Origin: Chara braunii
Taxonomy: Eukaryota > Plantae > Charophyceae
Assembly (NCBI GenBank): GCA_003427395.1
Contig: BFEA01000011.1
Span: 4,431,832-4,495,831, forward strand
DNA length: 64,000 nt
Direction of reading: 5' to 3'
Shown here piece by piece: positions 4,459 to 41,891 of this stretch; positions within the stretch are counted from its first letter, which is position 1; every line of letters starts with the position of its first letter. The translations under genes and the position numbers were made by a program. The notes under the pieces are model-generated. The model searched no databases, had not been told where the DNA came from, and saw nothing but the letters and a program-made list of their open reading frames with translations.

Positions 4459-4459
4459 C

Positions 4460-13812: not shown

Positions 13813-14402
13813 GGGTCGGCGACTTGAAAAAGTCTCACGGGAGGATTCCTCGCTGCAATTTTGTGCCAACTCTAGAGGGTAAGGGGGAGGGCATGTCGTT
13901 CCTGAACTTCCTGGAAAAGTCTCACGGGAGACAACAACCAATAGCGATGGAGAGTGCCACCAAAAAAAAAAGGAAAAAAGAACAAAACAAACGAGTGCCC
14001 TCGAAAATTGACAACGATTGGCTCAACTGATTTCCAAAGGGTTTTCCAAGCGCATTTGGTCCACCGTGATTGGGTCCCCGCAAAATTGTTTCCCGCCTTT
14101 CCAAAATCCTTTGCCCGTTTTTTTTGGCCGACCGCTTTTTCCATCATTTTTTCAGTGGGGTCCATGCCTAAGATATTGGAGCATCTTGGCTCTGACCTCA
14201 TTGACGTCGGTTGGGGATGGTTTCAAAATTTTGATTTCATAACTTTTAGCACTTCAATGTTGTCTGTACTTTTGAGGGGTCATTTAGCCTTTTTGATATT
14301 TTTATCGTGCTTGATTTGCTATTGGATTATGTTCTTGTAAAAAAACACTTGGTCAATTCGTAATTTGTCATTCTATTTATAGCTTGAATTTGATAACCCT
14401 CT

Positions 14403-17387
14403 CCTTTTTTTCTTTTTTTTTTTGGCTGCTCTGTCTATTGATGGGGAGTGACAACTGCTGGAAAATGGGTCCAGCATCCCTTGAATACATTCTCTCTTTT
14501 TTTAGCATGAACCATACGTGTTGAAAACTGGATCCACATCCCGTGGCAACCCTTCTCCCAACCCCCCTTCCTCACCCTTGACCTAACAGGGTATCGGAGG
14601 GAGTCACTAGGGGGCACCAGTGGGTCCTTCCTAGCCCGCCAACGTCTCCTGCCTCTGAACCATCCTCGAACTACCTATGCAAGGAATCTTTGTGTTGAGA
14701 TCCATGCTCAACCATGCTCATCCTCCTTTTTTTCTCCAAACTACTCGTGCCGAGAACTGGACTCAGTGTCTTTTGGATTACCTATGTCGAACCACTGTGC
14801 TGGAAATCGGGTACAGCATCCCATGGCTACGTTGGGGGGGGGGCGGGGGGGGGTCTCAGGCTGCCCCTTGCTCGGGTCCCATTAGAGCAAGCGGGTGTGG
14901 GGGAAAGGGGTCCGGGAACTCCACTGCGAGTCTCAATGGGATTCCGGGATCAACCACAGTCCAGTTCCGAAAGACTAGTCTGTAGTCCCTGTGCGCCTCC
15001 TCCTCTACCTCCCCCCGTTCCTCCTACAACCCCGAGTGTCGGGGAACATCGTCGGACCATGTCAAATCTGCCATCCACCCCTCTTGCTGCCTCCCAGCGA
15101 TTCCTTGCAGAAGGTTGATATGTTTCGTCGCGCGTGAACAAAATCCATCTTTTGTTTGGCCTCTTGCAAGTGATTCAGGATCTCAACTTGGACCAGTTGC
15201 TTGATCGATTCGGTTGCTTCGCCTTCCTCTATCTGTGCCCCTTCCAGCTCCAACACACACCTCCACCACCAGATCACCCAAACAATCGATAACCTGTCCA
15301 CCGGAAACAAGTTCTCTGTGAGGGGGTCATCCAGGCAGTGCGACCAGTATCCCGTTATCACCGCTCTGCAATCCCATGACCACTCCTGATCTGGTACAAT
15401 CTGCCGCCATATCCTGTCCCACCACCTCCACAACAATACCGATGAGGGGCACTGCATAAGAATGTGTCCAATTGTCTCAGTCCTTTCTTGCGGTAAATAC
15501 TTTTGCAGACACCTCCAACACCATGGTGTTGCCCGTCCTTGTTGCTCTAACCTCGTGTGGTTGATCAGCCAATCCTTAGCTAGGAGGCAGCGATGGGCAA
15601 TTTGCCATTGTAGAGCTGAGATCTTTATTGGCCTTAGCATCACCTCCCAGAACCATTTGATGGGGCGGAGGAGGAGCCAATCAATGTTCAGGTGGCACTG
15701 CCATCTATCCTCTATCCTGTCCCAGGGCCCCTTCTTGGGCCACAAAACATTCTGTATGCCTTTTTGACCTTCGTGTCAACTAGTGCCAGCAATCGCTGTG
15801 TGGCCCCGACCCTCCTCTCGCCCCTGGACCACCGCCACTCGACGAGGTCCAAGGCCAACTCTGTGATTGGTGTCATTGGTTGGAAGGTCCTCCAATCTTC
15901 TCTAATATTCAAGACTCAAATGCGGTAAATTGTGGACTTGTCTATCCCTACAAAGGGTTGTCTGCTCCCCATTAGGTGGTCCTCCCTACCTAGATTATAT
16001 CTTTTTACAAGGACCTCATTGCGTCCCTCAATATGCACCAATCGGTCCAATCTGACTTTATCCTTGTCCCATGGAATTCCAACCCAGTCCCCTTCTTTCA
16101 ACTTTGGGCCCTTCTTGAGTATGTCGTACCATTCGAGCGGGAAGTTCTCATCCATTTGCCCCAGTGCCTCTTCCGTGTGGGGGCAGTAGCACAACCATCG
16201 TTTCGTTCTTTCCGTACTCTTCCAATCCTGGGTTTTCCCATCGCACAAGTGTCCTACCCTTAGCACCCCATGCTTGACCCACCCCCTCTAAGGGGCATCC
16301 AAGTTGCACCTGATCCGGCCATGGGAGTCTGTGATCCATCTCTTACCAAACAAAGGTTGCCTGAACACCTCATCCCATCAATCCGATGATGGTCTATCAG
16401 GGATCAGGAGTCTCCTCCAGGTCTTTAGGAGGTGGACCCAAAAGGCATCTACCGCATCTCCGCCCCTGTATACTCGAGGTATCCTTCAGTACCTGTCCTC
16501 AAACCAAACCAAAGGATTTACCTCCGGGGGGGGCAGGGGGGCAAGGGCCACGATCTGTGCCAATGCTAGCGAGCGCCATGGGGAGTTTTGGTTAAAGATT
16601 ATTAGCAAGATACACCGTAGGGTTAGGGCTTGAAACTGTGGGCCAGGTCTATAATACCCAACCCTCCCTTAGCCTTGGGTTGAATTATCGATTCCCATAC
16701 CAACCGATTGATCACATAAGGGGATTCACTATCCCCTCTCCATAGAAAGATCGTTATTTGCCTCTTCAAGGCTTTAAGTCTCATCTCGCTTAACGACCAT
16801 AGCACTAACTTATACCATAAGAACGCTAAAACCACATTGTTAATAACCAGGGTTTTACCGACAATCGAGGTGTGCCGCCCGTTCCAAGCCGCCAACTTGG
16901 CTCTAGCCAGGTTCGCCACCACCGTCGTTGGTAGTTGGTTTACCCTTGGCTGATAGAGATGCTCCAAGGACTCTCAATGGAGCCTCCGGGGGTAACCATG
17001 TAATATGTGGTCTCTCCAAAGCTCTCCCACCCTGGTGGTGCAGCCACCAGCCCACCGTTTTTTGTCCCCAATTAATTGTCATATCCTATAGCCGATAAAA
17101 CCGTTCCATCAAGGCTTGCAATGCCTCCAGGTTCTGTGTGCATGCCTCCATTATGATCATTAGGTCAGCCGTGAAGAGGGAGCATACTGGGATCACCCCA
17201 TTGGGGATCCCTGCTATCCCAATCCTCCTAATGTCCTCGTGGCTTCGCAGATTAGCTGATAAGACCTCCATTATGATTAAGAAGAGGTGAGGAGCAATCG
17301 GGTCCAAATGCCTAATTGACCATTGTAGCGGGAACTGGGGGGGCACAATGTCGTTGACTTGAACACTTGTGGTCGCTCTGGCCAAGG
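14403..17387 (-). mobile_element. LINE-C, 3' piece (late RT, CCHC region, long 3'UTR, poly(A))
   Basis: TSVQVN..., LFTADL, GGLGIIDL, CWRC...HILMQC; T-tract at 14405-14422. Confidence 0.9.
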
Positions 17388-17419
17388 GGTGAAAACGATC
17401 ACGGCCGACTACAGTCATT

Positions 17420-17627
17420 GGATCGTCCCGACCGTCCGTATTCCCGGATCGGATGGCCAGCAGGCGCGCGCGGAGGGCCCACCCGGAAAACCACATATAT
17501 GAGGCAGGCCCACCACTCCCTATTGGAACATCCCGACCGTCAGTATCCCCGGATCGGACGGCCAGCAGGTGCCCGCGAAGGGTCCTCCCGAAAAACTATA
17601 TATACGAGGGAGGGCCACCAGTTCCCA
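17420..17627. repeat. ~105-bp tandem duplication
   Basis: TCCCGACCGTC...CGGATCGGA...GGCCAGCAGG...GGCCCACCA occurs twice. Confidence 0.85.
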
Positions 17628-17942
17628 TTTTCGTTTCAGTTTGGCAACCCAGCGGTAGCGCAGCGCAGCGGAGGCTTGTGCCACAGCACAGCGCATTGGA
17701 GGCTCGTGTACAACGCGGCAACGCAGCGCAGGGATTCGGTCCGTGCATAGCAGACCACCTGCTCGACGCGACGACGGACCACAGCGCTGTCGAGAGGCGT
17801 GTTCAGCGCTACGACGGAGCGAGCATACGGCCCAAGATCGAGACGCACAACCACAGCGGAGCACCCCGAGTTTGAAGGATCGGACAATGAGGAAACAACC
17901 ACGCAGCCCAGCTGCAACCACGTAACGCCATGTGGCACTTCC

Positions 17943-19127
17943 GGTCGTTGAGTCGAACACGATCGTGCCTGATCGTCGAGTCGAACACGATCGCGCCCGA
18001 TCGTCGAGTCCAACACGATCGTGTCCGATCGTCGTGTCGAACACGATCGTGCCCGATCGTCGAGTCGAACACGACAGTGCCCGACAATCGAGTCGAACAC
18101 GATCGTGCCCGATGTCTGATTGTCGAGTCGAACACGCTCGTCGAGTCGAACACAGTCGTCGAGTCGAACACGATCTTCGAGTCGAACACGATCGTCGAGT
18201 CAAACACGATCGTCGAGTCGAACACGATCGTGCCCGATCGTCGACTCGAACACGATCGTTGAGTTGAACACGATACTGCCCGATCGTCGAGTCGAACACG
18301 GTAGTCGAGTCGAACACGACACTGCCCGATCGTCAAGTCGAACACGACACTGCCCAATCGTCGAGTCGAACACGACAGTGACTGATCGTCAAGTCAAACA
18401 CTATCGAGGAGTCGAACACTATCGAATAGTTGAACACGATAGTCGAGTCGAACAACGATCGTCGAGTCGAACACGATCGTCGAGTCGGATACGATAGTCG
18501 ATTCGAACACGATCGTCGATTGCGTTCGTCGAGTCGAACACGATAGTCGTGTCGAACACGATAGGCGAGTCGAACACGTCGAGTCGGACACGATCGTNNN
18601 NNNNNNNNNNNNNNNNNNNNNNNNNNNNNNNNNNNNNNNNNNNNNNNNNNNNNNNNNNNNNNNNNNNNNNNNNNNNNNNNNNNNNNNNNNNNNNNNNNNN
18701 NNNNNNNNNNNNNNNNNNNNNNNNNNNNNNNNNNNNNNNNNNNNNNNNNNNNNNNNNNNNNNNNNNNNNNNNNNNNNNNNNNNNNNNNNNNNNNNNNTCC
18801 GACGTCGAGTAGAACACGATCGTCGAGTCGAACACGATAGTCGAGTCGAACACGATCGTCGATTGCGTTCGTCGAGTCGAACACGATAGTCGAGTTGAAC
18901 ACGATCGTCGAATCGAACACGATCGTCGAGTCGGACACGATCGTCGAGTCGAACACGATCATCGAGTCGAACACGATCGTCGAGTCGAACACGATCGTCA
19001 ATTGCGTTCGTCGAGTCGAACACGATCGTCGAGTCCGACACGATCGTCGAGTCGAACACGATCGTCGATTGCGTTTGTCGAATCTAACACGATAGGTGAG
19101 TGCCCTGTCGTCGAGTCGAACACGATC
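17943..19127. repeat. CpG-rich ~18-bp tandem array (GTCGAGTCGAACACGATC), containing an assembly gap
   Basis: Dozens of directly visible units; N-run at 18598-18797. Confidence 0.97.
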
Positions 19128-20262: not shown

Positions 20263-20804
20263 CTGACCTTCGAATCGCCAATTAGCGTGTTGAATGGCCT
20301 CAACGGCGGGATTGTTCCCCGTAGTCGGTAGATAGCCTTCGTCATATTGAATGGCCAAAACGGCATACTGAATGGCCGCAATGGCCGCAACAGCGAGATT
20401 GTTCCCCGTAGTCGATAGATAGCCTCGTGGAATTCGCATTGCGATTGCTGTTCTAAATGTGTTATTTCGATAACAATACGAGGTATCTGCTAGTTGTTCT
20501 CATCATGTGTTCAGTGCCCAAAAGTACACACGTTTGACGTTGTTGTCCTCATATTGTTTTTCGATTCATTGAAACCCGGGAATGATGACTTGTGTTTTTG
20601 GTTTGGCTGTGGACACCGACACATCGTTGCCAGCCGAGTGTTTGATTGTTGTTCTCATGTTGTGTTTCCTTTCAGAAAAAAAACTCGTTGTTCTGATGTT
20701 TTGCGTGCACAAACATTGAGCAGTCAATGTTTCTCCGTGTTAACCAGTGCCTGTGATCTGTTGTCTTGTGTTCTCGTGATCAAGTGCCCCTTTAGGCACC
20801 GTCC

Positions 20805-21362
20805 GCCGACCATTGTGTCGAACACGACAAACGTCGCACAGCACACCCCAGTGTCGCTGTCGTGTTCGACACGATGGTAGCCGCCGACCATTGTGTCGAA
20901 CACGACAAATGTCGCACAACACACCCTAGTGTCGCTGTCGTGTTCGACACGATGGTCGCCAGACGGTGCCCGTAAGGGCATGTGGTCGACTGTCGAACGG
21001 CAGACGACAGTGTCGCTGTCGTGTCGAACACGACAGTCAGCTCCCCTTCAGGCACCGTTTGGCGACCATCGTGTCAAACACGACATGGACACTGTTATCT
21101 GCGACCAGGCGGTGCATGAAGGGCCGCTTGGTCGACTGTCACACGACAGACAACAGTGTAACTATCGTGTCCAACACGACGGTTGGTCAGCCTGCGCAGT
21201 GCTGAGCTCGACGTCGAGCAGGACGACGAGTTGGTCGACCGTCGGGTTCGACACGACAGTGACACAACGACACCTCAATGTCGCTCTCGTGTCGAATTCG
21301 ACGGTACTGGAGGACGTCGTGGCACGGCCGTCGAGTTCGACACAACAGTGAAAACGACGACG
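20805..21362. repeat. Dispersed copies of the GTGTCGAACACGAC motif in both orientations
   Basis: Visible motif copies, including a ~78-bp tandem duplication. Confidence 0.9.
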
Positions 21363-21503
21363 AGCTGGCGGGCTGTGGCCCGTTTCCGTTGCTCTGTGTT
21401 CCTGTCTATTCTTGTTCTCAAGTGTTGTGGTGTTTGCACGTTGGCAAAGCAATGACTGCTTTCTCGCTTGTGCATTTTCTTCAGTTGCGACTAGCTACTC
21501 GAC

Positions 21504-24500
21504 ATGGATCGCGAGGGGAAGCCAAGCAAACGACGTACTAGTACTGGTTCCGGGAGCATGGAGCAGTCTCCGAAAAAACCGAAGGGGACACCAACGGCTG
21601 GCGTGGGGGCTGGCGACACATCGGGGTCTAAGGGCCACCGAACCCCAGTGCTGCGGGGTGCACCTTCTACGGGCACTCCTTCCGCCCATGTTCGAGGTTC
21701 GGGACCGGATTCGGCTGTGTTGATGACTGGTGGGGCTGCGGGTCAAGAAGAGGAGGCTACTGGTCGGCAGGGGAAATCTACGATGGACGTTGTGTCTAGG
21801 CGTAAAAGGTCTGGTGAGACATCCGTTGCAGGTGTGGGAGACGAGCTTTCTGTCGTCGACCACAAAGACAGGTGCTGGATGTTGGAGTGGGTGGGTGGAA
21901 TCGGGGAACCCTCGGGTGGGCTGGTTTTGTACGTGGTGATCAAAGATAACATTGTTCCGATTGGCGGTGTGGTGAAGTGGAGTGGAGGAAATTCACAGTT
22001 CGCCATGTTGGAGTTGACGATGGTCCTTAACGCTAGAGGTGAGCGGATGGCGAATGTCAAACGCGTTGCTCTTCGTTGGGCCAAACACGCTGGGTACGGC
22101 AAGAAGCTTTATGACATTTTCAATCCGCCCGGGACGAAGAAATTGATGTTGCCGGACCTTCGAGCAGTTTTCACATTCTTCGACAAAAATGTGGTCGCAG
22201 GGCATGAGCCGGTGGTGCATGCTTTCGACCGCATATCTAAACCGAAAAGCGTGCTTTCGTCGTCTTTGGAGGAGGCTCCGTCGTCGAAACCAATCATTAT
22301 AGGTGCCCGCCCACCGCCATCGCTTCGGACTACGGTTGCTGCGGAGGCGGCTCCGTCGTCGAAACCAATCATTATAGGTGTCCGCCCAACGCCATCGCTT
22401 CGGACTACGGTTGCTGCAACACGAGTTCCAAAATCTGGGCAGATCGGGGAGAAAGGTCCGTGTCGNGGGCAAATCATGCCGTCAGCCCCTGTGAAGCGTA
22501 GACCAACATCAACCAAGGAACCCGTTTCCTTGGTCCGCCCGCCACGCTATGAGTTGGTCATTCCTGCTGGGTCGCATTATTTTGGAGATGACGACGAGGA
22601 GAACAGCAAGGAAGATTGGGAGCGCGATGAAGAACGCGAAGAATATGAGGAGGGTGGCGAAGAAGAGGAAGTAGAGAGTGAGCACACAATCAGCGAGAGG
22701 GGTGGGCCAGGCGAATTGGAGGGTCGTCTAGGGGTTGAGTATGAGGACGAAGGGCAAGAAGAGGAAACGACCAGCGAGGGAGGGTATGAGATGTGCATTG
22801 GGGTTCCAAACGAATGCAGCTGCTCGCTTCGGGTCATGGGCATTGGGAAGCGGATCCAGGGAGCGGGGAAATGCACCGCGAAGTTGGGGTTGAGCCGGTG
22901 CATGCCGATGCAGCCCGACTAGCTGAGAAGAAAAGGAAGAACAGGCAAGAGAGGAGAAGTGCTTTGGACAGTAAGAAAACCAAGCAGGAGGGGGGAGCCA
23001 AGCAAGAGGAGGGCAAACTCAAGTTGAAAATGCTGGTAGTTGAGGAGGCCGTCCAACATACGCGGGAGGTTGAGGAGGCCATGAAGAAAAAACGGCAGCC
23101 AAGAAAAAAAGCAGCGAAGGGAGGTGTGATGGAAAAAACTTCCGTTTTTCCACCGGACCAGCCACAATCGGATGAAGACGCTGTGGGCAAGACAGTCACC
23201 AGACCGTCCGGTTTGCAGATTCTGCTGCCTGGGAATTCTTCTGGTCATCTTAGCAAAGACTTCTTCCTTGAGTTCGACGAGAATGGTAAACAGAGGCCGG
23301 AAATGCAGTTCATTTCTGTCAAGTTGGACAAGATTCTAGATATCCCTGATGAGAAATTCAGATATAATCAACGCTTCCTCGATCAGGAGCTTATTGATGA
23401 CCTTTACAAAACAATGGTTGAGTCGGGTGAGGCAGCTATCAGAGAGAGAACGACCGGGGCAGCCGGGGTGAATGTATGTGCATTGTCCGAGAAGCCTGTC
23501 CTTTTGTTGATTGAGCTACATGATACAATGCATATTGACGCTTCCGGTACGAATGTGAGGGCGAGAAGAGTGACGCCCGGTGAATTCGATCTCCAATCCG
23601 TGCGCAAGTACTACTGGTACCCTCTCAGTGGTCAACACAATGTTGCGGCGGCGAGGAAATGTTCTCAAGAACGCCCTGACATCGCCCGTGAGCTCCGTTT
23701 GGATTGCTGGACTGCAAGGCCTGTTTACTATCCGGATAGGAGCATGGAGAATTACTGCACCTTGAACACTTTCCAAAATGCGAAGGACAAATGGAATACT
23801 CCTCCGCACCAGATTGCTATCATTAAGAACATACGAAAGTTGTGGCAAGCAGCCGGTCGTCCAGAAGCTATAGGCGGATCTGCTGCAGACGTCAAAAATA
23901 AGGATTACAGAGAGTTTGCGGCAATGACTCTGCGCGCGATCGGGAGTGATCATTTGGTTACTCTTTCACTTCAGGCTTGGAGCAAGGAGTGGTCCGACTT
24001 CCTCGGGCCTTATATGGTATTGGCAAGGGCGACGGGCGATGTGTTCGAGAAGGTGCAACAAGTGTATTCTGCTTGGGAGAATGGACAGTTGCCGAGGAGA
24101 GATGGTGTGAAGCCTGCCACCAAACAAGGTGAATCGGGGAAGCGTCGAGACCTGGTCCCGGATTTGAGTTGGAAAAAGGAGTCAGGGTTCCAGTGCACTG
24201 GATTCAGGGTACTAGATGACCTGGTTACCTCGTGGCTGTGCGCGATCCGGATGTCAGATCATGGAAGGCTATGTCTACGTTGGGGAGGCGTGAGAGGCTT
24301 CAGTTGTTGCGAGACATTCTCACGGGAAGTGTCATACTGGCTCCAAGGCTAAGTAAAGTTGCTCACACTGCCGGGAAACATTCGATGGAGACATACGTGG
24401 AAATGGTGAAGCAGGAAAGAGCAATGTTGAGAATGTTTTACTACTTCGTCTTCATTTCTGACCCTCACAAGAAGCCGTCAGAGTGGAAGGAACNATTCTN

Positions 24501-27500
24501 CGACAACCTTTCTNATTTGTTCNNTAGNTATTGTGATCAAGGATNGACATCGNAGAGGTGGATCGACCAGCGACGACATTTCAAAGAAACGAGTTGGGTG
24601 AGGTCATTTCCGGCTACACTTGGAGGCGGGGATGAAAAAGGAGAGGAGGGCTTCAAGAAAACAAAATCGCTTGCAAACAAATGCCCCGAAGAGTTCATTC
24701 AATTTGTCAACAAGTTGTTGCGTAGATCTGAAACTGGGGGTTCGCATAGCATTCGTATGTCGGGGCAAGCGAGATATATATATTTCCAGAAACAGAACGT
24801 GACATCTGTATTCGTGTCGTTCCAGTGGGAACCGAACGATGTTTCAGACGAGATGGATTGCAAGGAGATGTTTAGAGCCGTCACACACCTGACGTGCCAC
24901 ACAGCCGTTCTGGATTTGTGCCGCCCGACCCAGATGGGTGCGTGGACTGAACAAGTGTTTCACGGACTCAAGAAGTTCATGGATAAACTTGGCGGCGAGT
25001 ATTGGACATTGTTGTGCTTCGTTCCACGCCCTTGCGAGTTCACATTCTTGAGGCGAGTCGCGATGTGGGACATTCAATTGGATCTTCTCAAATGGACTCG
25101 TCTACAACAAACAAAGGGGAAAGTGTATAAGGTTGCAAACTTGCCTTTGGAGGACACAGACAGAATGGTCGTCATCATGTACTCCAACGACGGGGATTTT
25201 TATCGCAACACTATTCTCTTGTTTGAAGATATTCAAGCTGCAGGTTCATCATCTGCCGAGCGGGTGACTGACATATCGACACTTGTGCAGAGAGAGAGAA
25301 AGCCGAAGATGTTGACTGATGTCGTGGAGAAAAACTTTCTACCATCAAAGTGGAAAATGGCAGGTATGGATCCACCGGAGAAAGTGGTCTATGATGGTAT
25401 GGAAAGGGAGCCGAATGCGATGGTGGAGACATTGGAGCATTTTTGTCATGCGGATGAGGCCGTCGTTTTCCTCGGGAAAGGTCATGCGGGATTGGTTTGG
25501 GAGTTGTTAAAGAGTCACCGTCATTGCATTGTGCTAGAAGGGGAGGGTATGAAGTTCAAGTTCCTCACTCAGTTCATTGACAAGATGGTCAAAACTCGAG
25601 ATTACTACACCAACTTTACTAAGCCGCCTCCTCGATATGATGAAGGGCGTGATCTCGTCTACAAGGTTGGCCAAAACGTGGTCAATATTTGGGAGTTTCT
25701 CTTCGAAACAAAGTCGCAAGACAGAGGGGAACATACTTATGTCCTCAGAAGAATAAAAGTGGAGAAGCTCTTGAGGGGTTATCATAAAGCACCATCGAAG
25801 AGGGAGGTTTCATTTCTCGACCGCTTGGAGACAATGTACTTCGACCAACAAATCGGGGCATTTACAATCGCAGGTTATGCGACTTGTTTTGTGGATGGTG
25901 AGGACTTTGATGCCGATGACTCAGAAGAAGAGAGTATTGATGGCACTTTGCAAGCGGTTTTGGCAGCTGAGAGGCAAAGAGCTTGTAGCCCGGCTTCGCA
26001 TTCGCAGAGAATGGGTGTTCCAGGCACATCGTCCGGTTCTGGAGGAGCTTCGAGCATGGCGGTTTCAACGGATCAGTTAATGACTCATCCGCCGACTTCT
26101 TCTATTGTTACACCGACTCAGATGGCGGGCAATACGATGACGGTGGCATCAGGAGACATTCTGGATCCGAATGTTCTAGCAATGCTCTCCCCAGAGTTGG
26201 TGGAAACTCTGGCACCATTTGCACACAGCCCAAGTACTATTATGGAATTACTACGCTCTCGAACTCCACAACAACCGCCACCTGATGAGCCTTTGGAGTA
26301 CGAGATTGGAGACACAATCCCTGCAGACATTCGACTGCTTCCGGGGCCTATAGTGTGCCGAGACGATTATACGGTGACGGATGATGCCACGTGGGGTTAT
26401 CACATCATATGGCACCCCCAACACTTCCAACCTCCATTGGCGAGAGGGAGGTGGATTATGGCTATAAAAAAAGAAGGGGAGTGGCAGTTTTGCCTCCATA
26501 GACGTATGTCAGGATCGAACTTTCTGAAACATGTCAAAAATCAGATTGTCAAGCGACTCATGCGACTTAATCCGGAGGTTTCTCAATCAAGACTAATGTA
26601 AGAACAGAAAAAAATTTCCAAAAGTTCAAAACATCGCAGTGGCTTGAGTATCTGGAAGAGTTCTATGATAGACAAACCAGCCCGGCTTATGGATATTATT
26701 GGCATGTCAGAGAAGATCTTGGGGAGAGGAAAAAATCAAGCGGCGGTGGTGACCATGGCAAGGGATCCGGATCGAGCGGAGGTGCGCATGGCAAAGGATT
26801 GCGATCGGGGAGCGGTGCAAGTGACAAGGGTCCGGAACCAAATGACGGTGCAAGGGGCAAGGACGCAAGTCATGGGGAACGACAACAAACCGAAAAGTCT
26901 AAGGGGTGTCAAGCAACAGAAGGCAAGGGATCAGCACCAAGCGGCGGTGGGCATGGCAAACCTACAGGACCAAGCGGCGGTGGTTCAACTGTCGAAGGGT
27001 CTCAGGGGCCTCAAGAAACAGGGCGCAAGGGATCAGGATTGAGTGGTGGCTTAACTGTCGAAGGGTCCCACGGTCGAGTCGAACACGACAATGGCTTCGC
27101 ATTGGAGCGTTCCCAGCTTGACCAAGCGAAGAAACTCACGGTCTAGTCGAACCCGACAGTGGGATCGGAAACGATCGTCGGTGCGACTGGCAAGGCTTTG
27201 GGACCAGGGGGGGGCAGTACAACTATCGACGGTGCTTCACCTGTCAAAGAGTCACACGGTCGTGTCGGACACGACACTCGTCCAGCATTCGAGCGCTCGC
27301 GGCTTGACCAAGCGAAGAAACTCACTGTCGAGTCAAACCGACAGTGGGATCGGGATCAATCGTCGATACAAGTGGCAAGGCTTCGGAACCAATCGACGTT
27401 GTTTCACCTGTCGAAGGCTCACACGGTTGAGTCGAACACGGCAGGGGTCCACTATTGGAGCGCTCCCAGCTTGAGCGAGCGGAGAAACTCGTGGTTGAGT

Positions 27501-29430
27501 CAAAACCGACACAGCAATAGGGATTGATTGCCGGTGTGAGTGTCAAAACTTCGAACGAAAAGGAGATGTGAGTTGCGAGGGCGTGAGTACAGCTGACCAA
27601 GTTTGGGCGACTACGATACTAGTGGGCGACAATGTCGCTATGGAAGTGGATATTACTGGTACACTCACGGAATTGCAGATGCCGTCGTCAACGATGCCAG
27701 CCGAAGTAAGCGGCACTTTCCAGGATACTTTTGAGGGCGTAAAGGAGGAAGAAACTTTCCATGTACAGGGCATCGAAGAGGATGAAGGACATATAGTACT
27801 CAGTACACCGGAGGAAGCTGTACTTGTACAACCTCAACAAATGCTTGAACAACCTCAAACACCACAGTCTGCTAACCTCATGATAACTATCGAGGAATCT
27901 CCTATTGCGCCATTGCATATGGAAGGTGTGACAAAAGGTCGTGTTGAAGAAAAACTGAGAGTTAGTCATCGAGGTGAGCACTTTCTTATCTTAGGAGCAA
28001 TATCTAATACTATATGCGGATTAGTGGGTACATCACATGCACTCATCTCCCATTGTGTCGATCCCTCAGATGTATTGTTTATTTACCTAGCTTTGGAACT
28101 GTGCGTTTTCTGAAGAAAAATACTACAATTGTTTTGTATGAAGACTTACTGCAATTGCCATATATTTTGTATTGGTACTCATGAGTCAGTTTCAACAACG
28201 GAAAGTCGGACTTGTAACTCATTATGTTTTATTTTGTCAATCATGCATGGCGACGAAAAGAACTGTGGAAAACGACACATGTACACTCGCAAAGGAAGAG
28301 AGAGAAGAATATCATTCGTCGTGGTTTGCAAGCTTTGTCAACTTTGCCGTTATTGCCAAAAAATGAGAGAAGAAGTCGTACACCCATGACATTTCCATCT
28401 GTGAAGCCAACTGCCTTAAGGATGTTTAAAGCTGTTGAAATAAGCCTCACAGAAGGGAAGAAATTGCATCGCGCAGGTTGCAGTTTATCTGTTATGGATA
28501 GCAACACTGATGACGAAACAGATAGACAACCAACAATATGAACTCATATTTATGTAGTCTATCACTTGTTTTTGTGTGAAGTCTTAGTCGCTCTATTGTT
28601 GTTTATATATGTGTTTGTATGCAGTGCATGACCCTTCGTTCCAGATTCCTTTAGCAACAGTACGCCTTACTGTAGAAGAAAAGGAGTATCTTGAAATGAT
28701 TACCGGCAGCACTGAAGAGAATGAAGAATACGGCATTGTCGATTACAAGGGGAGATGGAAGGTGGAAAAGAAAGACGCCATGCTCGCCGCCAAAGATGGA
28801 GAATGGTTAAATGATGAAGTCGTCAATTTGTACCTGTTAGCCATTCAGATCACCAATGACTACATCAAGAAGGTGGATTCGACATGTGCAGAAGTGGCAA
28901 AAGATGAAAGTTCTTGTAGCATTCCATCTGTGCATATTCTAAATTCTTTTTTCTTTCCCGGATTGTCAAAAGCTCAGTCCGCTGAAATCGCATACTCCGA
29001 AGGGACGAGATGGGTGAAGGACATAAATCTTTTCAATTTTGATCTGGTAATTATCCCTCTCCATTTCGGAAATCATTGGGTTTTAGCTTATGTCAGTATA
29101 GATCGCTCTGAGTGTAAATTCCGCCTCGTAGACTCTCTCCATCGTGTTGACTACGGTCCAACCCTCGAACTTTTGGCAGGTTTTTTCAGAGCAGAGTTTC
29201 AGCGACAAAATCTTCGAGAAAAATATCATGTGGAGGAGCCTACATCCTACTTTGATACATCAGTAGATGGGATTCCTGCTCAAGAGGATTCTTCTAGTTG
29301 TGGTGTTTTTATGTTAGGTTTTGCATCTTTGCTTGCAAAATGTCACTTCCCTCCGTTCGGTTTCTCACAAGATAGTATTCCTGATATGAGACTTAGAATA
29401 ACATTTGACATTTTGTCCATGGTTAGATAG
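21504..29430 (+). pseudogene. Large multidomain cargo gene: ParB/DGQHR-like, degenerate DNA methyltransferase-like and Ulp1 protease; frameshifted, with predicted intron 27974-28624
   Basis: Consecutive overlapping same-strand ORFs (21504, 22793, 24232, ~26620-27973, 28609) joined by frameshifts or single stops. GT..AG intron with phase 1 at both ends. Confidence 0.7.
28625..29430 (+). CDS. Ulp1/SENP (peptidase C48) catalytic domain exon
   Basis: WLNDEVVNLY, LNSFFF, IPLHFGNHW (His), DSL (Asp) and QEDSSSCGVF (Gln/Cys); the triad is intact and the frame is open. Confidence 0.93.
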
Positions 29431-29837
29431 GAAAGTCGATGAGAAATTCAGTTTCTAGGTTTGGAAAAATGAGGTTGACATGTTTACTTAGTGTGAACAT
29501 TCTGGGTGAAAATGTGTATTGTAGGCAATTTTAAAAATATGTTGACAATGTATAATGACATTTCCTAGACTTCTCATCAATTGTTGATGAGGTTAGCGTG
29601 TTTTACTGTGTGACATGTTTACAGAGTGGATTGTCAATCCTTGAGTGACATTTTTGCAGCTTGTGTACGTGTGAATATTCGAGGTGAAAATTTTTGTTTA
29701 ATTTCCTTCAACAACTTTCATATATAACCATTGTTTTCTCGTTGTTTGCTTATTTTTTCCTCAGTTCTTAGTGTCATTTTACAATTAAAATAAAAAGTGA
29801 ACATGAAAACAATTTCACTTTTAACGAAAGCACCGTT

Positions 29838-31562
29838 GGGACCAATTAAAAGGTGTTGGGGGGAGGAGTTGGCCGCCCACAGGATGGTGTGGCCACACAC
29901 ATCCTTTAGAGCCCACGGTCCGGGCCTGGGTATTGCAGGAGTGGCAATCTGACTCCCTCCAAACTCAAGGTAAGTTGATGAGCAGAAAGGGAGATGGGTC
30001 TATATGTTGGGGATGTTGGAGTTGAAAGTGATGTTCATCCTATGCATTTATGACCCCAAAAATACGGTGAGTGAAAGGAGGTTGTTTTTCGACAGTTTGG
30101 GAACGATGGTTCCAGAGGGGATCCCGCTCGTAATTGCAGGGGATTTCAACGCAGCCCCGAACATATCGCTTGATCGTTGGAACCTGCAGGTTTCCCCTTC
30201 TCACACGATAGAAGAGGATAAGCAGATTCGAGGGAAGCTATGCGACTCCCTCTCAGTATTTGACACGTTGCCCTGTCTACACCCGAATGCCCGCACATTT
30301 TCCTGCGTACGTGACAACGACCCTGCGAGGCAGATAAAGTTTTGTATCGACCTCGTCATCATCTCAAAAACGACCTGGAAGGAGCCCTTCGAGTCTTCGA
30401 CTAGCGGTTATCCTCCCGCGGAGCCCCCATCTGGGACTAAACTACAAAACGTGTGGATTGGTCCTCACAACATGAAAACGACCAGATCAAGGGTCGGGCT
30501 AGTATAAACTTAGCACATCCCTTATACTGGACAAACACTTCCAATCCCTCATCAAGGACATATGGCGATTCTGGCAGCAGCAAAAACCATAATTCGACTC
30601 AGAACTAGCATGGCTAAATAACAAGTTGTACTACATCGCAAGGAAACGCAATGAATATTTGAAAGAACGAGCAGCACAGAGGAACAAACATAAGATAGAG
30701 ATCCACAAAAAGGTCCATGATCTGGAGCAACAGGCAGACTCACAAGCTCAAGAACGGGACATTGAACAGTTGAAAAAACAATTGTTGCAATTCTCGCAGC
30801 AAAGATGGCAAGGACTAATTAAATGCAGTAAATTAGTCCATGTTAACCAGGAAGCTACCATGGACACCAGATTTTTCAACATGGCCTCGGGCAGAACGAG
30901 GTGAACAGTTATCGAACCCTCTTTGATTTAGACAAGGGGGATGACAGTCTAGCCACCTCCACGTCACATTGTACCCACGTCACTAGGATATTTTTTCAAA
31001 AACCATACATGTCTCAGTATGGAAGAGGGATCTAAACGATTTTCTTAAGGCTATACAGAGAGTGTTGTCAACACAACAAATTGAAAGTGTATATGCTCTG
31101 CTGACAAAGCAAGAGATATGGATAGCGCTGCACCAAATGGACGAAGGGAAGACCCCAGGTATTGATGGGTTCCCCAAGGAGTTTTGGGAGTCCATGTTGC
31201 CGATCCTGAGCTCTGACTTGTGGTCATACTACCAAAAGGTATGGGAGGAGGGATGTATGGGGGAAGTGGTTGGACAACGGGTTTTGATGCTCCTGTATAA
31301 GAAAGGGGATAAGATAAACCTTAGGAACTACAAACCCATCACCCTTCTGACATTTGTCTGTAAAATGTTGGCATTGGCCTTGGCCAATTGTATGGTCGGG
31401 GTCTTGGAGGATATCTTTCACCCAACTCAAACTGACTTCATATGCAACCCAAACATCCAAGAAAACATTCTTCTTGTTAATGAGATAGTTAACTTGTCTC
31501 GACGTCATGACCAAAATGCGACAATCATTTTTATTGACTTCGAAAAGGCTTGCGACAGTGTG
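29838..31562 (+). mobile_element. LINE-C, middle piece (APE body to early RT), inverted relative to the other two pieces
   Basis: GVAI, AGDFN, KTPGIDGFP, NYKPITLL and IDFEKACDSV. It starts at the transposon TSD and ends just before the RT segment found at 17387. Confidence 0.88.
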
Positions 31563-31744
31563 TCATTGTTCGCGTTCTGGGAGAATCAGCGCAGCGGTCC
31601 GCCAACGTCGACACGACAACTGCCCCGCTCTCCAGGTTAGTGTCGCTTCGGCCAACACGGAAAGAGAAAAGCCTCTGTGGACGGCCGTGTCCAGTGCTGG
31701 TTTATCGGTGACGTCAACAAGTTTTCTCCAACACTTTCACCGCA

Positions 31745-32692
31745 GTCGTTGTCGTGTCAAACACGATGGTCGATACGGTCGTCGTCGTGTCGAACACGAT
31801 GGTCGATACGGTCGTCGTCGTGTTGAACACGATCGTTGTCGTGTCCGACACGCTGGTCGTCGTGTCAAACACGATGGTCGTCGTGTTGAACATGATCGTT
31901 GTCGTGTTNNNNNNNNNNNNNNNNNNNNNNNNNNNNNNNNNNNNNNNNNNNNNNNNNNNNNNNNNNNNNNNNNNNNNNNNNNNNNNNNNNNNNNNNNNNN
32001 NNNNNNNNNNNNNNNNNNNNNNNNNNNNNNNNNNNNNNNNNNNNNNNNNNNNNNNNNNNNNNNNNNNNNNNNNNNNNNNNNNNNNNNNNNNNNNNNNNNN
32101 NNNNNNNNNNNNNNNNNNNNNNNNNNNNNNNNNNNNNNNNNNNNNNNNNNNNNNNNNNNNNNNNNNNNNNNNNNNNNNNNNNNNNNNNGGTCGTCGTGTC
32201 AAACACGATGGTCGTCGTGTTGAACACGATCGTTGTCGTGTCCGACACGCTGGTCGTCGTGTCAAACACGATGGTCGTCGTGTCCGACACGGTCATCGTC
32301 GTGTCGAACATGATGGTCGTCGTGCCGAACACGATCCTTGTCGTGTCGAACACGCTGGTTGTCGTGTCGAACACGATCAGCGTCGGGTCGAACACGATCT
32401 CCATCGCGTCAAACATGACCGTCGTCGTGTCGAACGCTCTCGTCCTCGTGTCCGGCTCGTTGTCATGCACGGCCGTCGTCGTGACCGACGTCGTGTCGAA
32501 CACGGCCGTCGTATTGTCGAACACGACCGCCATCGTATCGAGCACGACCGTCTTCATGTCCGACACGATCGTCGACGATGGTCGTCGTGTCCTGCACGAT
32601 GGTCGTCGGGTCGGACACGGTGGCCGTCGTGCCGAGCACGGCGGTCGTCGTGTCCGCCACGGTCAAACGCGGTCTTGGTCGTGTCGAACACC
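31745..32692. repeat. CpG-rich ~21-bp tandem array (GTCGTCGTGTCGAACACGATG), containing an assembly gap
   Basis: Same core motif as the 18-kb array with a different period; N-run at 31909-32188. Confidence 0.97.
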
Positions 32693-32989
32693 CTGCTCTT
32701 TTTGGCCACGACCCCCACCTACGTTTCGACTTGCACAGAGTTTAATGCGAGTTGCGCCAGCAGAACATAGTGCCCGGGTGACTGTCTTTTGTCTCTTGTA
32801 GCACTGATTGCTTATTGCGAGATTGCGCCACGACCCCCACCATGTAATATACAATGGAGCTCCTATCGTGTTGGGCGCGACATTGGCGTTGCCGCAGTCG
32901 TTTGCCTTCTCAGCCTGGCTATCTGGAAATCCGTCGTGCGTCATGGAATGAACTCTACGCGAATTTTGCTTCGAATCCTCGGAGTCTGG

Positions 32990-33258
32990 TACGCGGGAAT
33001 CAAGACGGGGAACCCTTCCGTGTTGGGCGAGGCGGTCGCGTTGCCACGATGGTTTTCCTGCTCACTCGTGGCAGTTTTCCTGCCCGCTCTTCGTGGGTGG
33101 TGAGTACCACGCGTGCCGGGAATCAAGATGGGGGACCCTTCCATGTTGGGCGAGGCGGTCGCTTTGCCACGATGGTACGGTCGCGTTGCCACGATGGTAT
33201 TCTTGCTCACTCGTGGCAGTTTTCCTGCCCGCTTTGCGTGGGTGGTGATTACCACGCG
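32990..33258. repeat. ~125-bp tandem duplication upstream of the transposase
   Basis: GGGAATCAAGA...TTGGGCGAGGCGGTCGC...TCACTCGTGGCAGTTTTCCTGCCCGCT occurs twice. Confidence 0.85.
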
Positions 33259-33818
33259 TGTCCAGTCGCTGCAGTTCCTGGAGTAATATAGAATCTTTCC
33301 TATCAATGTTCTTGTGCCAAGCTGTGTGCTGCGCGCCAGAGTCTTCGCCGATCCGCTGTTGGTGCCCGCTGGGTTTTGCACGCCGTGGTCTCTGCCTTTC
33401 CGAAGCTGGTGCCCGACGTGACATGTGCTGCGTTTCCTGTTGCGCGTCAAGATCTCCGCCTTTTCAATGTTGTTGCACGCTGTGTTTCCAGTTGCTGGTG
33501 CCCCGACTCGACATGTGCTACGCTTCCCACTGTCGTTCGATCTCCGACTTGGACAAACTCTTTCGCGTGTATTGCGCCTTTGGCACGGATTGGGCCTGAC
33601 GACTGGATTGCCACCCTGATTCCATGGTCGTGTGTTATCCTCTCTCGGATGTTTCCTGTTCCCCTCCGTCCAGTGTAGGGCTGTGTTTCTCAAGGTCATT
33701 TGTACGGCTGTGTTTCTTACTGTTGTGTAGGGATGGTTGTCTGCTCCATTTCATTAACCTCTGATTTTCGCCTTTTGACAGTGGTCCGCTGTTTTGTTGT
33801 CGCATACACGTCTCATGC

Positions 33819-36735
33819 ATGGCTTGTGGTGTGCATGCTATGCCACAGCAGACTTGCAGCACAACCTTGGAAAGCATGGACTGTGTGGCGTCTAATACAA
33901 TGCTCAATGAGGATTTTCCTCCACCGCACCTGCCATTTTGTTCACAAGATGTTCGAAGTGGTCACGAACATGTCGATAATGCTCCAGAATCTCCTGCTCG
34001 TAAGATGTCACGAAATATTGCGTGTGCGGACACTACATGTGAAAGTGTGTATCCCGTCCTTCGATGCCCGGTTCGAACCTGTGAGCAGAGAGTGCTGAAG
34101 GTTAGGAGGGTAAGACCTCCTCTACTGACAATGACGCATCCGATGTCGATCGTGTTGTATGGGTGCCGAGGAGTTCACTTCGATATTTCGAGTACACAGG
34201 TCTTCTGTTTGGTGAGAGTGATGAAGGTGGTTCAGATTCAAGTGCTTCGGTGTCGTCTAGTGCTGATAGTTCTCCAGATAAAACCGATCTTCCACAAACG
34301 TACGCTGACCGGAACAGTGACCACTGTTGTCGAAATGACGATGAGAATTGTGACGTGATCTCTGATTTCGATGACATTTTTCCAAAACGTCTGTCCTCAG
34401 AGAAGCGTCCTTATACTTTTCGTCTCAGAATGCCGCGGTCAAAAAAGATTCTGCAATCAGTTCATAGAAAACTCACAAAAAAAACACTGGCGAGTGTGTG
34501 TGGGCAGGTTTGCTGTAAGTGAGAGTGTTGCGCTCAGATGACCCTGGACGACATCAAAGCTGTCCGGAGCGCATACTACTCTAAGAACTAGCAGAGCAGG
34601 GATGCGTGGTGGGTTGAAACGTTGAAGAGGTTCACCTTCATAGAAGATGAAAAAGAGATTGTTCAACCTATTGTGGGGAGACGAAAGGTATGCATTAGTG
34701 CTTGGTGTTTCACACTGGGTGTATGTAGGAATACATTTCTAAAAAAAAGGATGACTTTGTCAAAAGGCTACAATATGTCGGAGCATGGCAGTACTGGACT
34801 CAGACGCACATCAGCAACATATGCGACGATGGACGGGAAACTAAGCTTCTTCGTGCGAGACAACGGAGATTCCATGCCCAATGACATGAAGATCAAAGAG
34901 GGGGAATCAAGAGTGGTGTTGAGATTGCCTGCTTGCTATAACAAGGTTGATATTTATAAGTTGCTACAGTCGCAATTCGACAACGTGGGTGCTCCTTGTG
35001 TTTCTCTCCAAGTTTTTTACAACATGTGGAGAACGCAGTTTTGGCATGTGAAATTCCAAGACATTGATCAAAACTTTGCGAAATGCGAGAAATGTGTTGA
35101 ATACAAAGAATCTATCAATTCCGTAAAGTTCGTGCTGTGCGTGAGTACTTTGTTTCGTTACGCGAGAAACACTTGGACTTGCAGCTCCAACATCGTGTTG
35201 CGTATGAGGTGTGGAAGGATGAGTCGAAGAGACCGGGTTCCAACAGTTTGTGCATCATCATTGACAGCATGAACCAAAGCAAAACCAACATTCCACACTT
35301 TGGCGAAGAGAACAAATCGAAGGCATTCGCAAATATTCCGATGTTGAAAACGAATCTAACAGCTATTATTGCACACGGTCTCTCACCATCGGTCCATGTT
35401 CACACATGGTACCCTTGCTATCCACATGATTCTAATGCTGTAGTGTCATCCATTATGAAAGTTCTCCGCGACATCCAGACGACGAATGACTTGCCTCCTA
35501 AACTGAGGATACAAGCTGACAACTGTTGGAGAGAAAACAAAAACAGATACGTTTTGGCACTCGCTACAACTTTGGTGAAATTTGGCTTCTTCAAAGAACT
35601 CGAATTCGGTTTTATGTTAGTGGGACACACACATACGGGCGTTGATGCCACTTTCAGTCATTTCTCTCGCAAACTGAAAATGCACGATGCATATACCATG
35701 CTCGACCTCTTCAAGCTCGTTGCCAGTTCTAAAAAAGAACGTTCATCGTGCACATTCATGGATGAAATTGCTGATTGGCGAGCTGCTGTTAAGCCCTTCC
35801 TGGTCAAGAGACTGACCGGTCATACTCGTCCACAAGCATTTAGGTTTTATATGCAGGATGACAATCCTGTGTTCCAGTGGAAAGAGTATTGCACTTCTCC
35901 TGAATGGTCTGCTCCAGTCTATTGCTTTAAACGAGATGAAAACAAAGCATTTGCTGGACCCGAATGACCATTCATGCCATCACCTGTTCCGCCGTCAGCT
36001 TCTCTGCCTACTAAAGATAGGAATTCGGATTTCAAATCGGGAATTGAAGGTGTGAAGACGTTTGTTGGGTGGTTGGAGAACAAGAGGCACGAGTGGTTGG
36101 GAATGAAAGATGAGGTTAGTTTCTCAAAGGAGAGTGTTCTTTCACACTGGAAAACTTTCCTCGAGACAGTCGAGGAGCATTACGGGTCTGGGTTTGCGAA
36201 AACTTCACTCAAGGCTGACTTCTGGCCCTCACAAGACAAAATTAAGAAGGATGATCCAAATGATATTGATATTGCCTTCCTCTTGAAGAGCAATGAGAAT
36301 AAGGAGCCGTTGTTCGTTGGACCGACCAACGAGCGTCCAAAGGCGGAACTCAACCCAGTTGTGGATGTCGAAAAAGGTCAATTTGTTCTCTTGCGTCCTT
36401 CCCAAGATGATATCGATGAGGGAGTTCCTGTATGAAAGGGTAGAGTCATTTCCGATGTAGACAACGATATGAAGTCGCTAACTTTCAATCATATTCTTAT
36501 TGAATATTGGGTGCCACAACCTATTGCTAAACGTCTTTCTGTGCAATATTCGAACGCATGGAAGAAGACATGAAAGAAAGACAACACAACATCACAGCAG
36601 TGGCAGCATGTAGACTGTGTTGTGTGGAGCTGGACATCCAAGAGATTGCATTTAGAAAATGAATTGCATATTCCAAAATCGGCCAGAGAGAAGGCCTTGG
36701 TATGCCTTTCATTTTCCGATAATGAAGATCAGTAG
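33819..36735 (+). pseudogene. Sola-like DDD transposase, disrupted
   Basis: CxxC (FAKCEKC) precedes the triad IIID...QADNCWRENKN...FMLVGHTHTGVDATFS. Several in-frame stops and a frameshift near 35120. The start position is uncertain. Confidence 0.82.
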
Positions 36736-36854
36736 GTTTTCAATAGGTTTTGAAGAAAAGCTAATCGTAGTTCTTTACACGTATTAGTACGTTATTTAGT
36801 TGTCATTGAGCTTTTATTTATATATATTTAAACTGTATTTTCATGTGTTGCAGA

Positions 36855-37466
36855 ATGGTTCAACCATTTGTGACGACTGAATGACCGCCAAGTAACATGG
36901 TGTGGGGAAGAAATATATGGCATGATATGGGTCCAGTTTTCTTCATATCTGAACTGATTTTTGACAGTGCAGTACTCAGTGTTAGAGGTGTGGATGCCCC
37001 ACCGGAAGATTGGGAACATTCTCCTCGAGAATCACTCTATATTTGTGGTCGGAGGTGTTGTGGAACGAGAACATACCCGCGAGAAGTGCTCGCACCCTTT
37101 TCGAAATTGTATTATTCAACAGTCAAATTCTGCCACAACAATTTGAACGTGATGACCTTGTTTTGTGCAGCGACAACTGTTCGAGGTCGGTGCAAAATAT
37201 CTTTCCTTATTTATAATGACTATTCTACAAGTGCAAGTGTTTCCAATGCAGACAACATCGATGAACGACGACGACAAGAATTCCGAAGGAGGATCATGAC
37301 ACTCATGGATGGGCTTGTGGACACGGCCATCAAATATTTCCGAAGTCTCATGCTGAGCAAATATGAAGTAATAGAAAGTTATATAGAGTACAAGGACCCG
37401 ACGTTTGACGGACAAACTAATACCATCATTGTAGAAGATTGGACAACTTATACAAGGACAGACTGA
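36855..37466 (+). CDS. Hypothetical protein or exon within the transposon
   Basis: 189-aa open frame preceded by a splice-acceptor-like TTGCAG; no recognisable motif. Confidence 0.35.
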
Positions 37467-41885: not shown

Positions 41886-41891
41886 TGAGTA

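What the first reader, a model, noticed from the sequence alone, without database searches (positions are those of the whole stretch)
24880..25580. Catalytically degenerate beta-class N6A/N4C DNA methyltransferase-like domain downstream of the ParB-like domain
Seen: EREPNAMVETLEHFCHADEAVVFLGKGHAGLVWELLKSHRHCIVLE follows the spacing of motif X-I-II (KPxxLxxxLxxxFSxxGDxVLDxFxGSG...GRxxIGxE). Upstream, TAVLDLCRP...W...WTLLCF sits where motif IV (DPPY) lies in beta-class enzymes. Known: ParB-MTase fusions occur in phages and have been noted in some eukaryotes. Inference: the changes DPPY to DLCR and FxGxG to LGKGH in a long open frame suggest a retained non-catalytic DNA-binding or reader module.
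Basis: inference. Interest (0 to 1): 0.8.

Follow-up and report, generated by a model that had tools for sequence, protein, structure and literature searches.

The report
Transposon-borne pseudo-methyltransferase in stonewort alga
A repeated, probably mobile element of the alga Chara braunii encodes a protein predicted to fold like a bacterial DNA methyltransferase, with the catalytic motif replaced in every copy examined, so it likely binds DNA rather than modifying it.

Summary
The fold call is right. With 47 relatives aligned, the region folds confidently (pLDDT 85.5). It matches beta-class amino-methyltransferases: CcrM Z 17.2, M.BceJIV 16.4, M.PvuII 16.1; best unrelated fold Z 5.8. Pfam and PDB sequence profiles miss it.

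The degeneracy is family-wide. In 0 of 72 aligned copies does the motif IV position read (D/N/S)PP(Y/F/W); the Asp stays in 70 of 72 and the motif II acid in 111 of 114. Seven subfamilies at median 26% identity share this. Relatives are Chara braunii gene models, plus one metagenome protein.

The domain follows a ParB/DUF3723-like domain. A Ulp1 protease lies downstream in the same gene model in 5 of 7 subfamilies. CpG-rich repeat arrays flank the gene, with a DUF7869 transposase-like gene beyond.

Likely role (inferred): a dimeric DNA-binding accessory protein of a large DNA transposon. Binding and inactivity are untested.

The parts
17941..19127 (+). Left array of 18-28 bp units built on TCGAACACGA, same orientation, CpG observed/expected 2.4 (assembly gap 18598-18797)
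20803..21360 (.). Further copies of the motif in both orientations, just upstream of the gene
21495..22922 (+). N-terminal part of the polyprotein, mostly low complexity. Out of frame with the next part in this copy; in one chain with it in paralogous models such as P0012, P0015, P0022
23300..23863 (+). ParB-like / DUF3723-like domain with conserved N(Q/H)R, GQH(N/T) and (E/D/Q)N motifs. Assignment is a lead only
   Evidence: Atlas 0.96 to DUF3723 clusters, 0.90 to a cluster 35% ParB_N; motif tallies; no Pfam or PDB sequence hit
24135..24219 (+). Lesions of this copy: a one-base frameshift and a premature TGA between the ParB-like and MTase-like parts
   Evidence: linker continuous in 9 of 11 models that match the search pattern
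24796..25600 (+). Beta-class amino-methyltransferase fold with degenerate catalytic motifs (the finding)
24913..24924 (+). Motif IV position: DLCR instead of DPPY/SPPY; Asp at the end of strand E51-57 of the model
   Evidence: mapping inferred from strand order
25402..25413 (+). Motif X position: EREP (E 109, R 101, P 96 of 114 rows)
25468..25491 (+). Motif I position: FLGKGHAG (first G 104 of 114, second G only 24 of 114, H 102 of 114)
25531..25542 (+). Motif II position: VLEG (E or D in 111 of 114)
25640..25900 (+). Conserved helical domain after the MTase fold; no family or fold assigned
27974..28624 (+). Predicted in-phase GT-AG intron linking the low-complexity tail to the Ulp1 exon, as in models P0008 and P0017; no RNA joint seen
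28625..29430 (+). Ulp1/C48 SUMO-protease domain; His, Asp and Cys catalytic positions present by eye
   Evidence: PF02902 E 2.6e-17; sequence
31745..32663 (+). Second array of the same motif, same orientation, 21-33 bp units (gap 31909-32188)
34106..36700 (+). DUF7869 gene, transposase-like by recalled DDE-type motifs; broken by stops and a frameshift; physical link to the MTase gene in other copies not shown
   Evidence: PF25273 E 4e-56

Best explanation
This is a decayed copy of a gene, repeated in many diverged forms in Chara braunii and likely part of a large DNA transposon, whose product is predicted to carry a ParB-like domain, a beta-class methyltransferase fold that has lost its catalytic motif family-wide, and a Ulp1 protease. 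The likely mechanism has three steps. (1, predicted) The pseudo-enzyme dimerises through the beta-class interface. (2, inferred) The dimer, with the ParB-like domain, binds DNA without methylating it, most plausibly the element's own same-orientation TCGAACACGA arrays. (3, inferred) This tethers the Ulp1 deSUMOylase to the element and keeps it open for transcription and transposition, in the manner of a VANC-type self-targeting accessory protein. Shown: fold, motif loss, domain order, multicopy state, arrays, lesions in this copy. Not shown: inactivity, DNA binding, target, mobility.
For: Fold: Z 17.2 CcrM, 16.4 M.BceJIV, 16.1 M.PvuII, 15.3 rotifer N4CMT. Motif IV is non-canonical in 72 of 72 rows and in all 7 subfamilies: DLCE, DLCD, DLCR, DLAP, DMST, DISS, DLCD. 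36 columns agree in at least 6 of 7 subfamily majorities despite median 26% identity, which argues for constraint on an already degenerate domain. ParB-like and MTase-like domains share a model in 78 of the 83 proteins with a ParB-like hit. Ulp1 is in the same model in 5 of 7 subfamilies. Homodimer model scores 0.75 against best control 0.00, contacts agree at least 92%, pLDDT at least 78. That mark was reached by 21 of 30 solved microbial homodimers and 0 of 23 single chains, and by 17 of 29 eukaryotic ones. Beta-class dimers are solved, so the pass may reflect likeness only. 71 of 74 motif matches in the window fall in 17.5-33 kb, 63 of those 71 on one strand. 1783 and 2247 DNA contigs at 85-100% identity lie on the gene and on the DUF7869 region. 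Low sense-biased RNA over the domain in 1 of 3 runs.
Against: No DNA of other copies was available, so neither dN/dS nor linkage to DUF7869 could be tested. None of 164 proteins carried DUF7869 in the same model. No terminal inverted repeats or target-site duplication were found. The Asp of motif IV (70 of 72) and the motif II acid (111 of 114) are kept, as expected if cofactor binding or catalysis persisted. RNA is scant: 12, 60 and 19 reads on 5.1 kb, none at 99% identity or more, and two of three runs gave none or one read over the domain. Nothing ties the protein to the arrays except proximity in one locus. Many database gene models are fragmentary, so no demonstrably intact autonomous copy was seen in C. 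braunii.
Confidence: 0.45

Rival explanations
1. The protein is a structural transposition accessory factor. The pseudo-MTase dimer binds and bridges the repeat arrays to assemble the transpososome, with no role in counter-silencing.
For: Predicted dimer; arrays upstream of both the MTase-like gene and the DUF7869 gene; similar repeat depth over both.
Against: The arrays are in the same orientation, not inverted as subterminal end repeats would be; no TIRs found. The conserved Ulp1 tail points to chromatin regulation.
Confidence: 0.2
2. The domain is still an enzyme: a non-canonical amino-methyltransferase, or another SAM-using activity, that marks the element's own CpG/TCGA-rich arrays.
For: Asp in 70 of 72 at motif IV, Gly in 104 of 114 at motif I, acid in 111 of 114 at motif II, and a family-specific conserved His in 102 of 114 and E-R-x-P. 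Iyer et al. note clades with unusual strand-4 motifs (PMC4738411, section 8).
Against: No PP and almost no aromatic residue at the fourth position (1 Tyr, 3 His of 72). Positions 2-4 vary freely between subfamilies, unlike an active site. The second Gly of motif I is lost in 90 of 114.
Confidence: 0.17
3. It is the inactive half of a heterodimer, like METTL14 or MTA9/AMT6-7, and directs an active partner encoded elsewhere in Chara.
For: Beta-class subunits divide catalysis and DNA recognition (PMC10406627 passages). Inactive partners are known in the MT-A70 family (PMC12695648 passages).
Against: No active paralog among 116 representatives from 1.84 billion proteins. The model ranks bacterial beta-class enzymes (Z 13-17) above MT-A70 proteins (Z 9-13). 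The homodimer model passes.
Confidence: 0.1
4. It is a neutral relic: a once-captured phage or bacterial ParB-MTase gene decaying passively as repeats multiply, or an expanded host gene family that is not mobile.
For: This copy has several frameshifts and stops, RNA is sparse, and many models are fragments.
Against: Seven subfamilies about 26% identical keep the same core residues, motif replacements and domain order. One metagenome protein (P0078) is a single 1419-aa record with both domains and the same replacements. Passive decay does not produce that pattern.
Confidence: 0.08

Closest known systems
Bacterial beta-class N6A/N4C DNA methyltransferases (CcrM 6pbd, M.BceJIV 8urk, M.PvuII 1boo, M.RsrI 1eg2, M.MboIIa 1g60)
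   Same: Permuted fold with motif IV before motif I, Z 15.8-17.2; predicted homodimer.
   Different: Only 7-9% identity, no (D/N/S)PP(Y/F/W), altered motif I, no Pfam N6_N4_Mtase hit, eukaryotic repeat context with Ulp1.
Eukaryotic horizontally acquired N4C MTases: bdelloid N4CMT (8s9n) and Marchantia DN4MT1
   Same: Same structural class in a eukaryote (Z 15.3 to N4CMT).
   Different: Those keep SPPY/TSPPY and are active. No sequence relationship was detected; Marchantia proteins were not among the 29 hits whose source was checked.
DIRS1 retrotransposon inactive Dam-like domains; fungal clade-4 inactive second MTase; METTL14/MTA9
   Same: Precedent for a retained, probably inactive adenine-MTase domain, including inside a transposon polyprotein (PMC4738411 passages).
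   Different: DIRS domains are group-2 (PCIF1-like) in a retroelement. This one is group-1/beta-class, fused to a ParB-like domain, with no reverse transcriptase in the consistent architecture.
Phage ParB-MTase loci and eukaryotic derivatives (Iyer et al. clade 6 in haptophytes; chlorophyte-type Dam with ParB-type HTH)
   Same: ParB-related module next to an adenine-MTase fold, lineage-specific expansion in an alga.
   Different: Those clades are unpermuted or group-2 enzymes, with FHA-fold or HTH partners. No phage sequence match here.
VANC anti-silencing proteins of Arabidopsis VANDAL transposons
   Same: Working analogy: a transposon accessory protein with same-orientation tandem arrays of a short motif in non-coding regions (PMC5735166 passages).
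   Different: No homology shown or expected; binding and hypomethylation are untested here.
Fungal DUF3723, conserved Starship cargo
   Same: Best language-model look-alike of the upstream ParB-like domain (0.96); also carried by large mobile elements (bioRxiv 2021.12.13.472469 passages).
   Different: No Pfam hit for DUF3723; no tyrosine-recombinase captain seen in the window.

Membership tests
Beta-class amino-MTase (fold) | Permuted Rossmann fold with motif IV N-terminal to motif I | tested here: met
   Z 17.2, rmsd 3.4 A, 218 aligned to CcrM; model 20-282 onto chain 3-254
Beta-class amino-MTase (active enzyme) | Catalytic (D/N/S)PP(Y/F/W) motif IV | tested here: not met
   0 of 72 rows; column mapped from the model's strand order
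Beta-class amino-MTase (active enzyme) | SAM-binding motif I (FxGxG, recalled consensus) and motif II acid | tested here: inconclusive
   First G 104 of 114, second G 24 of 114, acid 111 of 114
Beta-class amino-MTase (active enzyme) | Homodimer | tested here: inconclusive
   Model passes, 0.75 against control 0.00, but may be from likeness to solved dimers
Beta-class amino-MTase (active enzyme) | Methyl transfer to DNA | not testable with these tools
   Needs an assay
Pfam N6_N4_Mtase PF01555 | Profile score above the gathering threshold | tested here: not met
   No hit for window ORFs, 11 diverse domains or 90 full-length models; Atlas lead only, 0.86
ParB N-terminal domain | ParB/Srx fold and GxxR nucleotide-binding motif (recalled) | tested here: inconclusive
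   Atlas lead; motif reads GQH(N/T), without the Arg; not folded; no Pfam or PDB sequence hit
Cut-and-paste DNA transposon | Many dispersed diverged copies | tested here: met
   Models on many different contigs; 1783 contigs laid
Cut-and-paste DNA transposon | Linked transposase | tested here: inconclusive
   DUF7869 gene about 5 kb past Ulp1 with similar repeat depth; in 0 of 164 models; transposase nature of DUF7869 is recalled
Cut-and-paste DNA transposon | Terminal inverted repeats and target-site duplication | tested here: inconclusive
   None found in this decayed, LINE-interrupted copy; other copies' DNA not available
VANC-type anti-silencing system | Same-orientation motif arrays in non-coding parts of the element | tested here: met
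VANC-type anti-silencing system | Protein binds the motif and causes hypomethylation | not testable with these tools
   Needs EMSA/ChIP and methylome data

The most novel reading that the evidence does not exclude
An undescribed group of large charophyte DNA transposons turned a bacterial-type ParB plus DNA-methyltransferase module into a sequence- or methylation-reading dimer. It recognises the element's own CpG-rich arrays and delivers a SUMO protease to switch off host silencing, each subfamily with its own motif. It may do so through a rebuilt active site (invariant Asp, His, E-R-x-P) that performs a chemistry other than canonical methylation.
Probability: 0.25. Interest if true: 0.85.

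Novelty: new variant of a known kind. Interest (0 to 1): 0.58.

Why it matters
More than 150 'hypothetical' proteins, nearly all Chara braunii gene models where the source was checked, turn out to be one family with a bacterial-type DNA-methyltransferase fold that Pfam does not detect. It is a further independent case of a eukaryotic repeat carrying a methyltransferase module, and here the catalytic motif was replaced before the subfamilies split. If it reads DNA or methylation state, it would be a new kind of transposon accessory protein in a close relative of land plants, and a natural scaffold for a programmable DNA-binding pseudo-enzyme. This locus itself is only a broken copy; the value lies in the family.

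Tried and rejected
Sequence-level tests gave nothing. Pfam on window ORFs, models and domain alignments, PHROGs and PDB sequences by phmmer or profile returned only low-complexity or non-significant hits.

The single-sequence fold was useless (pLDDT 38).

No relative was found in phage records, viral contigs or metagenome contigs, so no paralog DNA and no dN/dS. The alignment was too diverged for pattern scans. No whole genome was held.

Terminal inverted repeats were not found. No RNA holder was listed in the run index.

The idea that DLC's Cys is a C5-type nucleophile was rejected: it is A or S in three subfamilies. Four SPPF strings in the set are in proteins that had no MTase-domain hit. 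Dynein, kinase, RT and hAT domains in single models are treated as chance gene-model fusions.

Earlier scan findings: none in three look-ups.

Literature searches that did not surface this family: searches returned 0 papers; some searches gave listings with no description of it. The library lacks most subscription papers. The supplement of PMC4738411 was not read.

Full report
Source and observation. The window encodes a protein identical to a database entry whose relatives are all named Chara braunii hypothetical proteins: 8 of 8 named hits, 22 of 22, 35 of 35. Pfam gives nothing for this ORF or the upstream one. A language-model search gave only a lead to N6_N4_Mtase (0.86, family on 39% of members).

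Family. A four-sequence profile found 116 representatives at E up to 0.001 among 1.84 billion proteins. Of the 97 new ones I checked the source of 29: 28 are C. braunii models and one (P0078) is a 1419-aa JGI/IMG protein. In all, 156 of 164 stored proteins match the domain profile; two of these are the window's own. The 44 near-full-length domains fall into 7 groups at a 45% single-linkage cut, with between-group identity of median 26%. P0078 is its own group on a long branch.

Fold. With a 48-sequence alignment residues 176-560 fold at mean pLDDT 85.5, pTM 0.75. Foldseek's top PDB matches are M1.HpyAVI, CcrM, M.RsrI, M.MboIIa and M.BceJIV (E 4e-7 to 4e-6). The wide aligner gives CcrM Z 17.2 (rmsd 3.4 A, 218 residues), M.BceJIV 16.4, M.PvuII 16.1, M.RsrI 16.1, rotifer N4CMT 15.3 and MT-A70 proteins 8.9-12.8, then drops to 5.8 (same order). 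Viral models agree. Identity is 5-12%.

Motifs. I mapped motifs from the strand order of the model; no tool printed a residue-level superposition. Motif IV position: 72 rows, Asp in 70, none with (D/N/S)PP(Y/F/W). Motif I: first Gly in 104 of 114, second Gly in 24, His in 102. Motif II: acid in 111 of 114. Motif X position: E-R-x-P. Subfamily majorities at motif IV are DLCE, DLCD, DLCR, DLAP, DMST, DISS and DLCD, and 36 columns agree in at least 6 of 7 subfamilies. The catalytic motif was therefore replaced before the subfamilies split, and the domain has been conserved since (inference from protein sequences; dN/dS was not possible). The DPPY/SPPY role is taken from passages of PMC10406627; the FxGxG consensus is recalled. 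Two copies of the domain model as a homodimer, score 0.75 against best control 0.00, contact agreement at least 92%, pLDDT at least 78. The tool's calibration is 21 of 30 microbial homodimers, 0 of 23 single chains and 17 of 29 eukaryotic homodimers. Beta-class dimers are solved, so this shows likeness, not binding.

This copy is broken. A one-base frameshift near 24140 and a TGA at 24217-24219 separate the ParB-like and MTase-like parts, while paralogous models read through (9 of 11 models matching the linker pattern). Further frame breaks lie near 22.9 kb and 26.6 kb, and the DUF7869 gene has stops and a frameshift. The database model for this locus starts inside the domain, after motif IV (P0003).

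Surroundings. Upstream is a domain with conserved N(Q/H)R, GQH(N/T) and (E/D/Q)N motifs. It resembles fungal DUF3723 (0.96) and ParB_N clusters (0.90) by language-model features, but has no Pfam or PDB sequence hit; ParB remains a lead. 78 of 83 proteins with this domain also carry the MTase-like one. Downstream is a Ulp1/C48 protease (E 2.6e-17), joined by a predicted in-phase GT-AG intron at 27974-28624 as in models P0008 and P0017. Ulp1 sequence shares a model with the domain in 10 proteins from 5 of 7 subfamilies. A 10-base motif occurs 74 times in the window at up to one mismatch, 71 of them between 17.5 and 33 kb and 63 of those on the + strand. It forms tandem arrays at 17.9-19.1 kb and 31.7-32.7 kb with CpG observed/expected 2.4 and 2.0, against 0.65 for 40-64 kb. 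A DUF7869 gene follows (E 4e-56); its transposase nature is my recollection, and the term returned no paper. In one DNA run, 1783 contigs lie on 24560-29700 and 2247 on 32200-38010 at 85-100% identity, with summed depth of the same order. The tool warns this is no copy number, but it shows both regions are repeated. No terminal inverted repeats were found and no model fuses DUF7869 (0 of 164). One element or two neighbours remains open.

Expression. Three RNA runs, 6-13% of each read, gave 12, 60 and 19 reads on 24560-29700, none at 99% identity or more. Over the domain nearly all came from one run and were sense-biased, assuming the usual library direction. This fits weak transcription of other copies; the RNA is from another study, so strain differences cannot be excluded.

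Mechanism. Most likely the product is an accessory polyprotein of a large DNA transposon. The pseudo-MTase dimer and ParB-like domain would bind DNA, plausibly the element's arrays, and tether a deSUMOylase to counter silencing. It would work like VANC, which binds same-orientation motif arrays in its own transposon (PMC5735166, passages); it is not a member of that family. Confidence is about 0.95 for the fold, about 0.8 for non-catalytic, about 0.75 for a transposon setting, and about 0.45 for the whole. Rivals are a transpososome scaffold (0.2), an atypical active enzyme (0.17), the inactive half of a heterodimer (0.1) and a neutral relic (0.08).

What is known. Iyer et al. (PMC4738411; passages and section 8) describe inactive MTase domains in DIRS1 retrotransposons, fungal clade 4 and METTL14, and ParB-linked algal clades, none with this architecture. 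Charophyte retrotransposons carry C5 DNMTs (PMC5890265, passages). Marchantia and rotifer N4C enzymes keep SPPY (bioRxiv 2021.02.12.428880 and PMC10406627, passages). AMT6/7 and METTL14 are non-catalytic partners (PMC12695648, passages). DUF3723 is Starship cargo (bioRxiv 2021.12.13.472469, passages). Ten searches did not surface this family. Subscription papers and supplements, including that of PMC4738411, were not seen.

Verdict. A real, apparently undescribed family of repeat-borne beta-class pseudo-methyltransferases: a new variant of a known kind. The locus itself is a pseudogene. Interest 0.58.

Noticed in passing
window 29974-31640 (+): LINE-like fragment (endonuclease and reverse-transcriptase motifs read by eye) lying between the Ulp1 exon and the second repeat array.
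   Followed up: no
window 276-17300: Several decayed LINE-type ORFs on both strands (endonuclease, RT and ORF1-like pieces, by eye).
   Followed up: no
window 26299-26594 (+): Small conserved W/H/P-rich domain late in the ORF, seen also in distant subfamilies (P0071, P0078, P0083); no Pfam hit.
   Followed up: partly
window 27000-27500 (+): Four copies of the array motif lie inside the low-complexity tail of the gene itself.
   Followed up: no
window 23300-23863 (+): The ParB-like domain lacks the Arg of the recalled GxxR motif in 61 tallied rows (mostly GQHN or GQHT), so it may be a second pseudo-enzyme; its closest look-alike is fungal Starship cargo DUF3723.
   Followed up: partly
protein P0078 (JGI/IMG record, contig 7672 bases): 1419-aa relative with both domains, about 28% identical, the only non-C. 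braunii member among 29 checked; its DNA could not be fetched.
   Followed up: partly
window 41886-42943: Nested long inverted repeats (58, 33 and 60 nt arms) that look like a MITE or foldback element.
   Followed up: no
window 14424-14824 and 44115-44684: A dispersed repeat present twice in inverted orientation about 30 kb apart; not tested as ends of the element.
   Followed up: no
window 17417-17629: 105-bp tandem duplication just left of the first array; a candidate left-end region.
   Followed up: partly
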